This document shows positions 5,234-45,283 of a DNA stretch of 64,000 nt, piece after piece (the first letter of the stretch is position 1; each line of letters opens with the position of its first letter). The DNA comes from Octopus sinensis (taxonomy: Eukaryota), in assembly GCF_006345805.1 (NCBI RefSeq), contig NC_043000.1, forward strand, positions 132,308,001 to 132,372,000, given 5' to 3'. The translations under genes and the position numbers were made by a program. The notes beneath the pieces were generated by a model. The model ran no database searches. It was given only the letters and a program-made list of their open reading frames with translations, and had not been told where the DNA came from.

Positions 5234-6056
5234 AGGCGAACTGACAGAATCGTTAACACACCATTAAAATGCTGCTAAGCATTTTATCTTTCTTTATGTT
5301 CTGAATTCAAGTTCTACTGCGGTGGACTACTTTGTCTTTCATTCTTTCGGAGTCGTTAAAATAAGAACCTATTTCTTTACTACCCACAAGGGGCTAAACA
5401 CAGAAAGGACAAACAAGGACAGACAAACGGATTAAGTCGATTATATCGACCTCAGTGCGTTACTGGTACTTATTTAATCGACCCCGAAAGGTTGAAAGGC
5501 AAAGTCGACCTCGGCGGAATTTGAACTCAGAACGTAGCGGCGGACAAAATACCTATTTCTTTACTACCCACAAGGGGCTAAACACAGAGGGGACAAACAA
5601 GGACAGACAAACGGATTAAGTCGATTATATCGACCTCAGTGCGTTACTGGTACTTATTTAATCGACCCCGAAAGGATGAAAAGCAAAGTCAACCTCGGCG
5701 GAATTTGAAGTCAGAACGTAGCGGCAGACGAAATACCTATTTCTTTACTACCCACAAGGGGCCAAACACAGAGGGGACAAACAAGGACAGACAAACGGAT
5801 TAAGTCGATTATATCGACCTCAGTGCGTTACTGGTACTTATTTAATCGACCCCGAAAGGATGAAAAGCAAAGTCGACCTCGGCGGAATTTGAACTCAGAA
5901 CGTAGCGGCAGACGAAATACGGCTACGCATTTCGCCCGGCGTGCTAACGTTTCTGCCAGCTCGCCGCCTTCGATAAAATAAGTACCAGTTCAGCACTGGG
6001 ATCGATGTAATCGACCCACCTTTCCCCCATGATTTGTGCCGATAATAGAAAGGAAT
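5234..6056 (+). mobile_element. Old SINE-B copy split by a younger antisense SINE-B multimer
   Basis: 5' part 5234-5369 and 3' part 5971-6056 are collinear with the B consensus; TSD TCGTTAAAATAAGAACC / TCGATAAAATAAGTACC. Confidence 0.75.
5367..5970 (-). mobile_element. SINE family B trimer (one head plus 3 x 184-bp body)
   Basis: Near-identical units start at 5367, 5551 and 5735; single head at ~5920-5970. Confidence 0.92.
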
Positions 6057-7260: not shown

Positions 7261-7419
7261 GCCTTGTGCGGCCTTGTGCTTACAGTAGAAAGCGTTTATT
7301 AAAGTTGAAAAAGTGACACACTGACACTTATTATATGTTTAATTTTGGGGAAATTTGATTTCAATGAAAGTGTATTTTTTATATATATATATATTTATAT
7401 ATTTATATTTGTGTGTGTG

Positions 7420-7485
<66 letters not shown>

Positions 7486-7488
<3 letters not shown>

Positions 7489-7696
7489 GAAGCTTTATGA
7501 AAATAGACAAAAGACGAAGGCAGGTGGAAAACAAACGAACAATTGTATTAGTATAGCGCTCAGGAAATATAAATAAAACAAGTCTTTAACGTTTCGAGCC
7601 TACGCTCTTCAACAGAAAGATACACAGAGAGAGAAAAACACAGAAAGAAGGAGAGAAAAAAAAAATGCGTGCAGTAGCTAACGAATCAACATGGCG
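7486..7696 (-). mobile_element. ~210-bp (TA)n-embedded element with hammerhead-like motif (Penelope pseudo-LTR / retrozyme-like), copy 1
   Basis: Homologous end-to-end to 19741-19939; (TA)n on both sides. Confidence 0.75.
7583..7620 (-). ncRNA. Minimal type I hammerhead-ribozyme-like motif, variant core CUGUUGA
   Basis: UCUUU-CUGUUGA-A-GAGC(GUAG)GCUC-GAAA-CGUU-AAAGA; stems I and II pair perfectly; palindromic ACGU stem III. Confidence 0.6.
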
Positions 7697-7733
7697 ATAT
7701 ATATATATTTATATATTTATATTTGTGTGTGTG

Positions 7734-7806
<73 letters not shown>

Positions 7807-7827
7807 ATATAAATATGTATATATTTG

Positions 7828-7880
<53 letters not shown>

Positions 7881-19612: not shown

Positions 19613-19616
<4 letters not shown>
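19355..19616 (-). mobile_element. Ty3/Gypsy gag fragment
   Basis: KDAEVRTKFLTNLEMNQNITLQKLSEECTMILKVRHD...INP*MACGGKHLRKE (decayed Zn-knuckle); similar in type to the gag at 42856. Confidence 0.6.
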
Positions 19617-19669
<53 letters not shown>

Positions 19670-19740
19670 TATATATACGTGTATGGTCTATGTATGTATA
19701 TGTGTATATATATATATATATATAATATATATAATATACA

Positions 19741-19939
19741 CGCCGCCATGTTGGATCGTTAGCCCCTACACGCATTTTTTCTCTCCTTGTTTCTTTTCTG
19801 TGTATCTTTCTGTCGAAGAGCGTAGGCTCGAAACGTAAAAGACTTGTTTTATTTCTATTCCTGAGCGCCATACTAATACATTATTTGTTTGTACTCCACC
19901 TGCCTTCGTCTTTTGTTTATTTTCGTAATCCTTCCCGTT
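19741..19939 (+). mobile_element. ~200-bp (TA)n-embedded element with hammerhead-like motif, copy 2
   Basis: Homologous to 7486-7696 with the same boundaries (CGCCATGTTG ... CTTCCC). Confidence 0.75.
19805..19842 (+). ncRNA. Minimal type I hammerhead-ribozyme-like motif, variant core CUGUCGA, GUA cleavage triplet
   Basis: UCUUU-CUGUCGA-A-GAGC(GUAG)GCUC-GAAA-CGUA-AAAGA. Confidence 0.62.
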
Positions 19940-19982
19940 ATATATATATATATATGTGTGTGGGTGTGGGGGGGGGAGAGAA

Positions 19983-44132: not shown

Positions 44133-45283
44133 AAAGGATTTGCACAATAGTGTCTGATAGAACAACTCGGGACCTTCGTCTTGAAGACCTCAAAACAACG
44201 CTTATTGAAAGACAATATCCATCCCTCACTCATCGACGAGGGAATTAAACGTGCCAAACAATTAGACACAAAAACACTAAAAACAACAAAACACAACACC
44301 ACACCTCAACTCAAAACATTACTATTAGGCTTTCAACATTATTGTGCAAACTCTTCCTTTACTAACTAGAGGTCCAAAAATGAACGACATCCTGAAAACA
44401 CACAAACTCATCAAATGCAAAAAACAAGACGGTTGAAAAATCGCTAAAGAGACTACTACTAAGGAAATGCGAAGCTTTACAAAACAACCTCGAAACCAAC
44501 GGTTGAAAAATGCGGACGCCCAAACTGTGGGACCTGCCCCAACCTACTTGAAGGCTCGGATTTCCTTTTCAAAGAAGGACAGATGTTTACAATTAAAACT
44601 AGTTTCACTTATGCCTCTAAGAACCTAATTTATATAATAACCGGCTCGGGTTGCGGACACAACTATATTGGACAAACGAGTATGACCTTGAGAAAGAGAA
44701 CCACTCTACATAAAGAGCAAATCTGTTTCCCACAATACAGGTAAATTCCTCTCAGTGAACATATAGAAAAATGTGCAGATAACATCAAACCAAATTTCAC
44801 AGTCTTCCCCTTCTACCAGTGCAAAGACACAATCTCTCCACAAGAACGTTTAAATAAAGAAACTTTTTTCATTGAAAAATATACAACACATCTTAATATG
44901 CACGCATAACCAACTTTTATCCTTTTACATATTTCAATTCATGATTACATCACTGTACATAAACCCTCTCACTAAACAAGGTTTTCAAAACTTGTCTTTG
45001 TCTGTACATATATATTCCCCTCCCATAACCGAAAGCTGAACAGTTATCTCCCTTACCCACAACAATAGCAATAATAACGATAACCAATTACCCCTCTTTA
45101 TTTATCTACTTGTGAAGTCATTCACTCGTGAATTTCATCACACACAACATGGACAAAATTTCTTAAGGAAAAATACATATTCAAATAAGTAAAACATAAT
45201 ATCATGAATAGCGATAGCGAAACCGGTCGATATCTTAAAAATTATATTAAAACTATGTAAGTGTGCGTATTTTCTTTTTTTAA

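What the first reader, a model, noticed from the sequence alone, without database searches (positions are those of the whole stretch)
19741..19939. Microsatellite-dwelling ~200-bp element carrying a hammerhead fold with a non-canonical CUGUYGA core
Seen: two copies (7486-7696 minus, 19741-19939 plus) with the same ends, no ORF, both inside (TA)n. The copies differ at many positions, but the 38-nt motif UCUUU-CUGU(C/U)GA-A-GAGC-GUAG-GCUC-GAAA-CGU(A/U)-AAAGA differs only at the two positions that are variable in hammerheads (N7 and the cleavage base H17). Established: Penelope pseudo-LTRs and metazoan non-LTR retrozymes carry minimal type I hammerheads with a palindromic stem III that work as dimers, and the canonical core is CUGANGA. 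Inference: U at the A6 position in both copies is a family trait rather than decay. Standard hammerhead searches would miss it, so this may be an uncatalogued ribozyme-bearing mobile family.
Basis: partly seen in the sequence, partly recalled or inferred. Interest (0 to 1): 0.8.

Follow-up and report, generated by a model that had tools for sequence, protein, structure and literature searches.

The report
Penelope retroelement hammerhead with altered core
The 200-base repeat is the cut-short tail of a Penelope-like jumping gene, and over sixteen thousand copies carry a hammerhead-shaped RNA motif with uridine at a normally fixed adenine while the rest of the motif stayed unchanged, so it is likely a slowed, untested ribozyme that lets one ask whether these elements need self-cleavage at all.

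Summary
Observation confirmed. The two copies are 5'-truncated 3' ends (pseudo-LTRs) of a 4.2-4.6-kb Neptune-type Penelope-like retroelement (RT, Cys linker, GIY-YIG; pLTR-ORF-pLTR tandems) that inserts into (TA)n. The motif has every feature of the minimal type I hammerheads of such elements except A6. U6 is the family state: 16,350 exact U6 copies against 657 with A, C or G, and 80 of 81 copies chosen without regard to the core. Across nine subfamilies N7 takes all four bases and H17 switches, 33 of the other 34 motif columns never change, and 55 of 133 flank columns do. A related lineage in the same genome keeps A6 and swaps a stem I pair, so U6 is derived and the fold stayed under selection. 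Cleavage is untested. Published position-6 changes cut activity sharply, and 5' truncations pile at a likely transcription start rather than at the cleavage site, in U6 and A6 lineages alike. Best reading: an attenuated dimeric hammerhead (about 0.45); main rival: a non-catalytic fold (0.35). No natural U6 hammerhead found in the papers I could search; three key papers were not held. New variant of a known kind.

The parts
19744..19939 (+). Solo pseudo-LTR: 5'-truncated 3' end of a Neptune-type Penelope-like element (young subfamily, N7=C, H17=A)
   Evidence: 39 further copies at 96-98% among the 40 scored; continuous with EN-bearing copies such as L003/L081
19805..19842 (+). Minimal type I hammerhead motif: stem I 19806-19809 with 19838-19841; core C3-A9 19810-19816; extra A 19817; stem II 19818-19829 (loop GUAG); G12-A14 19830-19832; palindromic ACGU 19833-19836; H17 19837; predicted cut 19837|19838
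   Evidence: sequence; architecture as in PMC4209133 Fig. S3
19813..19813 (+). U at core position 6 (A in canonical hammerheads)
   Evidence: 16,350 U versus 657 A/C/G exact 24-mers genome-wide
19738..19751 (+). Hot spot of 5' ends of copies (around CGCCATG); likely transcription start inside the pLTR (inferred)
   Evidence: 24 of 100 copies start between -5 and +7; stop rate 3.1% per base against 0.4% downstream and 0.3% upstream
19616..19738 (.). (TA)n target, 5' side of copy 1
19940..19955 (.). (TA)n at the 3' end of copy 1; the element's own end reads CCCGT-TATA
   Evidence: 86 of 100 copies have six or more TA letters right after the 3' end
7487..7696 (-). Second solo pseudo-LTR (youngest subfamily, N7=U, H17=U)
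   Evidence: 97.6% identical to copy L208
7583..7620 (-). Hammerhead motif of copy 2 (C3 at 7615, U6 at 7612, H17 at 7588)
7697..7868 (.). (TA)n target, 5' side of copy 2 (7380-7485 on its 3' side)

Best explanation
The element is the 5'-truncated pseudo-LTR of a Neptune-type Penelope-like retrotransposon that lies in (TA)n, and its hammerhead motif, which has carried U instead of A6 through all nine subfamilies seen while the rest of the core stayed fixed, is likely a slowed ribozyme that would still cut occasionally as a two-hammerhead dimer. Shown: full-length units are pLTR-ORF-pLTR with the U6 motif in both repeats; copies share a 3' end at CCCGT-TATA and vary at the 5' end; the pLTR/body junction itself reads TATATA. 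Inferred: the GIY-YIG nuclease nicks (TA)n, the nicked end primes reverse transcription on the UAUA of the RNA, and most copying stops early, often at the RNA's 5' end about 70-85 nt before the motif, which gives the ~200-bp solo copies. Inferred: a transcript of a tandem unit holds two motifs whose ACGU palindromes pair to complete stem III. Predicted: cutting after H17 is much slower than with A6, may prefer Mn2+ or need the element's protein, and touches only a small share of the RNAs that are copied.
For: Identity: 27 of 30 loci picked by the EN alone have the motif 193-986 nt downstream, 26 with U6; 6 of 13 long loci and 6 of 8 young loci hold two motifs 4.2-4.6 kb apart around the ORF; RVT_1 hit, E 2.7e-8; DKG, YIDD, CSRPRCRTC and IIYC..C..YI motifs. 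U6 fixed: 80 of 81; 88 of the first 100 in the oldest subfamily; no other base at 3% or more in four runs under three organism labels. Selection on the fold after U6: N7 takes U, C, G, A and H17 switches A/U between subfamilies, never G, while 33 of the other 34 columns never change against 55 of 133 flank columns (Fisher p 4e-6). G8, G12 and the palindrome, which serve catalysis and dimer formation (established knowledge; PMC4209133), are kept. The related A6 lineage swaps stem I C-G for G-C. A natural A6C hammerhead still cleaves, weakly in Mg2+ and well in Mn2+ (PMC3088659; PMC7151607).
Against: No cleavage measured. In a full double-mutant scan all changes in the CUGA turn except the C3-G8 swap gave low activity and none was rescued (PMC9901934 passage); A6C lowered one ribozyme from 0.3 to 3.6e-6 per min at 0.3 mM Mg2+; minimal Penelope hammerheads are slow even with A6. 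Loop II (GUAG) is also invariant in the U6 lineage, which cleavage alone does not require. 5' truncations show no consistent peak at the cut site, 81 of 100 copies run through the whole motif, and no compensatory change in stem II exists inside the family (14 double changes, random-looking). Subfamilies were assigned and ordered by eye; one has three members.
Confidence: 0.45

Rival explanations
1. Same element, but the U6 motif is catalytically dead and its fold is kept for a non-catalytic job: a structure that the element's RT binds or pauses at, or a dimerisation site that brings the two pLTRs of a transcript together for template jumping.
For: Position-6 changes are strongly deleterious in published assays. 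The lineage out-multiplied the A6 families (16,350 exact U6 24-mers versus 12,967 matches for all CUGANGA families of the ACGU type together; patterns differ in strictness). Copied RNAs were nearly all intact across the site. Naiad elements spread without canonical hammerheads (PMC8557442). Loop II is invariant.
Against: The only freely changing columns are N7 and H17, and H17 is never G at subfamily level, which is what catalysis predicts; the A6 lineage shows the same lack of a cleavage footprint, so that lack does not single out U6.
Confidence: 0.35
2. U6 is held by an overlapping signal: it extends a pyrimidine tract before the AG of GAAG (a 3' splice site, as the D. virilis Penelope intron ends at helix I) or belongs to the internal promoter, and the hammerhead was sacrificed or only hitch-hikes.
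For: A long pyrimidine tract precedes the motif and the first AG after it lies in the core; Penelope has an internal promoter and a 75-bp intron in its pLTR (PMC2377424 passages); 5' ends pile up 70-85 nt upstream.
Against: N7 next to it is A or G in three subfamilies; the candidate donor is GT in some subfamilies and GC in others; the A6 lineage has the same tract; such a signal would not keep stem II, GAAA and the palindrome.
Confidence: 0.12
3. The motif is a neutral relic: the ribozyme died with A6U and looks conserved only because the master lineage is short.
For: Other short blocks in the pLTR are also unchanged for 12-16 columns; no covariation inside the family.
Against: The same lineage changed 55 of 133 flank columns and changed N7 at least four times and H17 three times, but 33 of 34 other motif columns never; diverged subfamilies in four sequencing runs match the window copy only over about 19806-19845 (loose ends and depth peak).
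Confidence: 0.05
4. The 200-bp unit is an independent non-LTR retrozyme or SINE-like element that amplifies as its own small RNA.
For: Many copies are ~200 bp with a preferred 5' end; retrozymes are argued to derive from pLTRs (bioRxiv 10.64898/2026.07.22.740005). Solo pLTRs re-copied from their own promoter are not excluded as a source of some short copies.
Against: 5' ends form a continuum from inside the motif up to full-length ORF-bearing units; no array of short units was seen in the loci read, only occasional pairs (L084, L105).
Confidence: 0.05

Closest known systems
Minimal type I hammerheads in the pLTRs of metazoan Penelope-like elements (Cervera and de la Pena 2014, PMC4209133; main text parts 1-2 of 4 and supplement parts 1-2 of 3 read)
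   Same: Short stem I, extra base between positions 9 and 10.1, G10.1-C11.1, GAAA, palindromic 15.1-16.1 without a loop, U-rich 5' side, place in both pLTRs, thousands of solo copies.
   Different: All 56 motifs of their Fig. S3 have A6; the core variant they report is U3-A8. Here A6 is U with no visible compensating change.
Neptune clade of EN+ Penelope-like elements (features as described in PMC8557442, passages)
   Same: RT followed by CX2-5CxxC linker and C-terminal GIY-YIG with two internal cysteines; pLTR partial tandems; microsatellite targets.
   Different: Canonical hammerheads are said to be universal in these clades; this lineage lacks one. Clade placement rests on motifs, not on a tree with named references (Nematis shares the linker).
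Natural A6C hammerhead of phage Bcep176 (PMC3088659 passages; PMC7151607 parts 1-2 of 4)
   Same: Natural change at core position 6; low but real activity.
   Different: A single phage motif with C6; here U6 in a minimal, dimer-type motif, fixed in a retroelement lineage with over 16,000 copies.
Metazoan non-LTR retrozymes (PMC7229834 passages; bioRxiv 10.64898/2026.07.22.740005 part 1 and passages)
   Same: Small non-coding unit with a type I hammerhead, related to pLTRs.
   Different: Retrozymes are tandem arrays of short units with canonical cores; these copies are mostly solo and continuous with an RT-EN ORF.

Membership tests
Minimal type I hammerhead of Penelope-like elements | Core C3 U4 G5 A6 N7 G8 A9 | tested here: not met
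   Position 6 is U in 16,350 of 17,007 exact matches; the other core bases are canonical
Minimal type I hammerhead of Penelope-like elements | G12 A13 A14 A15.1, U16.1, H17 not G | tested here: met
   79, 81, 79, 80 and 77 of 81 copies; H17 A 52, U 28, C 1, G 0
Minimal type I hammerhead of Penelope-like elements | Palindromic stem III without loop, extra base after A9, G10.1-C11.1 | tested here: met
   ACGU, A, and G-C in all nine subfamily majorities
Minimal type I hammerhead of Penelope-like elements | Stems I and II supported by covariation | tested here: inconclusive
   One stem I pair swaps C-G/G-C between U6 and A6 lineages (one event; 12 hand-picked rows); stem II does not vary in either
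Minimal type I hammerhead of Penelope-like elements | Site-specific self-cleavage as a dimer | not testable with these tools
   No assay; genomic 5' ends give no consistent footprint
EN+ Penelope-like element | Single ORF with PLE-type RT (DKG, YxDD) | tested here: met
   RVT_1 E 2.7e-8; motifs; 104 longer homologues, most with RVT_1. Every copy read is broken; longest frame from the ATG 763 aa
EN+ Penelope-like element | C-terminal GIY-YIG endonuclease | tested here: met
   IIYC..C..YIGQ and downstream R, E, H residues; Pfam GIY-YIG did not score on our frame but is on record for several homologues
EN+ Penelope-like element | Pseudo-LTRs from partial tandems, upstream copy variably truncated | tested here: met
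   6 of 13 and 6 of 8 long loci; 19 of 30 young 5' ends have the upstream pLTR
Neptune clade | CX2-5CxxC linker between RT and EN | tested here: met
   CSRPRCRTC; also found in Nematis
Neptune clade | Insertion into microsatellites | tested here: met
   86 of 100 3' ends and 46 of 78 mapped 5' junctions abut TA repeats
Neptune clade | RT groups with named Neptune elements | not tested
   No named reference sequences were at hand
Non-LTR retrozyme | Tandem arrays of short units, each with a hammerhead, no own ORF | tested here: not met
   Copies read are solo or ORF-linked; arrays were not sought genome-wide
Non-LTR retrozyme | Abundant small circular RNA | not testable with these tools
   Only contigs of runs were served

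The most novel reading that the evidence does not exclude
The U6 motif no longer cuts, yet selection has kept its three-dimensional core, dimer palindrome and free positions through the whole recorded life of one of the genome's most prolific retroelement lineages. That would mean the hammerheads of Penelope-like elements serve first as a folded RNA element for their telomerase-related RT (binding, dimerisation or template jumping), with catalysis dispensable.
Probability: 0.3. Interest if true: 0.85.

Novelty: new variant of a known kind. Interest (0 to 1): 0.6.

Why it matters
The role of hammerheads in Penelope-like elements is stated to be unclear (PMC8557442; PMC4209133). This genome offers a natural experiment: a U6 lineage and a related A6 lineage with the same stem II, palindrome and (TA)n target. 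Either result is informative. If U6 cuts, a position treated as obligatory in search descriptors tolerates U in a motif with tens of thousands of copies, and elements scored as lacking hammerheads need a second look. If it does not, the fold has a job other than catalysis. The test needs only short transcripts. A second family with an A3-U8 core sits in the same window, which suggests that CUGANGA-based counts miss whole families.

Tried and rejected
Rfam: nothing at gathering score in the window and no hammerhead family at E up to 10 on either the U6 copy or an A6 copy; uninformative. Monomer folding z-scores: no signal. Covariation inside the family at stem II pair 10.2-11.2: only 14 double changes. 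Cleavage footprint in 5' truncations, counted by eye from complete listings: youngest subfamily 25 junctions at H17/1.1 against 6, 7, 8 at neighbours, but that site offers TA microhomology (another TA site gave 10); in subfamilies with H17=A the counts at 1.1 were 6 against 3, 5, 4 and 5 against 5, 12, 4; in the A6 lineage 13 against 7 and 18; windows up- and downstream gave 27 and about 60 junctions. Verdict: no consistent peak. Expression: no RNA holder listed; contigs of runs only guessed to be RNA cover the body but cannot show transcription, ends or strand; no joint fitting an intron in the pLTR was among those shown (52 were not shown). An A6 ancestor of the U6 lineage: A6 copies are scattered over subfamilies like back-mutations. 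Searches queried the wrong side of the element and were set aside. Pfam found nothing on three partial frames. Earlier scan notes: nothing. Literature for a natural U6 hammerhead: searches found none. Lunse et al. 2016 (RNA Biol, hammerhead variants of Penelope-like elements), Arkhipova et al. 2017 (Terminons) and Weinberg et al. 2015 were not held and may list core variants; the supplements of PMC8557442 and PMC3088659 were not read; Repbase and Dfam could not be searched, and the family itself is probably in repeat libraries as a Penelope.

Full report
Observation. Both copies exist, at 19744-19939 (+) and 7487-7696 (-), inside TA repeats. They are 83% identical. The 38-nt motif differs only at N7 and H17, while the flanks differ at 21 of 156 aligned bases plus 18 gap columns. 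Read as a type I hammerhead it gives stem I CUUU/AAAG, core CUGUNGA, one extra A, stem II GAGC-GUAG-GCUC, GAA, palindromic ACGU and H17, with the cut predicted at 19837|19838. This is the layout of the minimal hammerheads of metazoan Penelope-like elements; all 56 examples in Fig. S3 of PMC4209133 have A at position 6.

What the element is. The host genome G000 is 2.72 Gb; its size and repeat make-up recall an octopod, which is my recollection and not a call result. Of the 30 best-matching loci, several run on upstream, and L003 reaches a GIY-YIG fragment. Loci picked by that fragment alone carry the motif 193-986 nt downstream in 27 of 30 cases, 26 with U6 and one with A6. Walking 5' gave full units: 6 of 13 long loci hold two motifs about 4.1-4.5 kb apart around an ORF region, as do 6 of 8 young loci, at 4.2-4.6 kb (one of the other two was fetched too short, one from the wrong side). 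The frame scores RVT_1 at E 2.7e-8 and shows DKG, YIDD, a CSRPRCRTC linker and IIYC..C..YI, the features given for Neptune and Nematis in PMC8557442; with the microsatellite target Neptune is the likelier clade, untested by tree. A young 5' end has 150 matches; 19 of 30 read have the upstream pLTR with U6, the other 11 are cut shorter, and best pairwise identities are 96-98.7%. Every ORF read is broken (longest 763 aa from the ATG); whether by decay or assembly error I cannot tell. The window copies are thus solo pseudo-LTRs, that is 5'-truncated insertions.

U6 is the family state. The exact 24-mer with U6 occurs 16,350 times, with A, C or G 657 times, control 0; in the first 100 of the latter I count 70 C, 21 A, 9 G, a mutation spectrum rather than a subfamily. 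To avoid selecting on the core I took the first 100 of 20,519 matches to a downstream 19-mer. Of these, 81 hold the whole motif and 19 are truncated or deleted in it; position 6 is U in 80 of 81, N7 is U 40, A 16, C 13, G 12, and H17 is A 52, U 28, C 1. In the oldest subfamily 88 of the first 100 of 547 are U6, 10 C6, 1 A, 1 G. In four public runs under three organism labels no other base reaches 3% at 19813, while N7 and H17 vary widely.

The fold stayed under selection after A6 was lost. Clustering on the 3' part gave nine subfamilies, which I delimited and ordered by eye, adding ten copies to one of them; mean distance of copies from their subfamily majority falls from 9.7% to 1.0%. Along this series N7 changes at least four times and H17 three times; of the other 34 motif columns 33 never change and one changes in a three-member subfamily. 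In the flanks 55 of 133 columns change (15 anchor columns left out), with many indels; Fisher p 4e-6, columns treated as independent. N7 and H17 are the positions that hammerheads leave free (PMC3088659 consensus). Against this: loop II is invariant too, and stem II shows no compensatory change within the family.

U6 is derived. The genome also holds 12,967 canonical CUGANGA...CGAAACGU motifs (control 41). One set has the same stem II and palindrome, a homologous pLTR layout, TA targets and an upstream EN of roughly 45-58% identity to ours; its stem I is GUUU/AAAC against CUUU/AAAG here, one compensatory swap, and its loop II varies. A6 copies inside the U6 lineage are scattered over subfamilies.

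How it likely works. All copies end at CCCGT followed by TA repeats (86 of 100), and in tandems the pLTR joins the body through TATATA, so I infer priming of reverse transcription by nicked (TA)n on UAUA of the RNA. 5' ends are spread, but 24 of 100 fall within 14 nt of CGCCATG in all subfamilies, a stop rate about eight times that on either side. An initiator-like TCAG or GCATTC lies just upstream, TCATTC in the A6 lineage (the initiator consensus is recalled), and D. virilis Penelope starts transcription inside its pLTR (PMC2377424 passages); I infer that this is the RNA's 5' end. A transcript of a tandem would then hold two motifs able to pair through ACGU. If cutting were fast, copies should start at the cut site; they do not, in the U6 or the A6 lineage, so the RNAs that were copied were nearly all uncut or rejoined. 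This bounds the role of cleavage but does not separate the two cores.

Is it still a ribozyme? Not shown. For: the pattern of constraint above, and a natural A6C hammerhead that cleaves weakly in Mg2+ and well in Mn2+. Against: A6C cost one ribozyme about five orders of magnitude at 0.3 mM Mg2+, no second mutation rescued changes in the CUGA turn, and minimal motifs are slow even with A6. I found no measurement for U6. I give 0.45 to an attenuated dimeric ribozyme, 0.35 to a non-catalytic fold, 0.12 to an overlapping splice or promoter signal and 0.05 each to a neutral relic and a free retrozyme. The identity of the element and the fixation of U6 I hold at about 0.95.

Novelty. The element class, its pLTR hammerheads and its microsatellite targeting are known. 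A natural U6 core, fixed in a high-copy lineage, was not found in ten searches of the held library, but three papers most likely to list core variants were not held and two supplements were not read. It works like a minimal Penelope hammerhead by anatomy; it fails the CUGANGA membership test, and catalysis is open. Verdict: new variant of a known kind, interest 0.6.

Noticed in passing
window 45199-45233 (+); family loci L424-L435: A second non-canonical hammerhead-like motif: stem I AUAUC/GAUAU, core AUGAAUA (A3 paired with U8 in place of C3-G8), 2-bp stem II, palindromic ACCGGU, C17. 301 exact matches genome-wide, control 0, and 92 of the first 100 read AUGAAUA. It lies about 300 nt after a decayed GIY-YIG frame at 44286-44885; relatives carry RT and a Cys linker. 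Another Penelope-like family; the papers read report only U3-A8 in nature.
   Followed up: partly
G000, oldest U6 subfamily (L384-L393 and listing): C at position 6 in 10 of the first 100 copies against 2.8% family-wide; possibly a small C6 offshoot, which would echo the phage A6C variant.
   Followed up: no
L177, L179, L181 and others: A third high-copy canonical minimal hammerhead family (stem II GGCUG/CAGCC, stem I ACAC/GUGU) whose 5' ends abut (AAT)n or (AAG)n rather than (TA)n.
   Followed up: no
L163:3753-3826: Contigs of two runs show a tandem duplication of about 74 nt just before the start codon, and one 5' variant dominates in all four runs laid; it matches the youngest subfamily.
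   Followed up: partly
L067, L072/L073, L077, L169: Motifs on opposite strands 150-1500 nt apart, as in the inverted arrangements described for Penelope-like insertions.
   Followed up: no
window 5367-5920: Three tandem copies of a 184-bp unit, 97% alike, made from another interspersed repeat.
   Followed up: no
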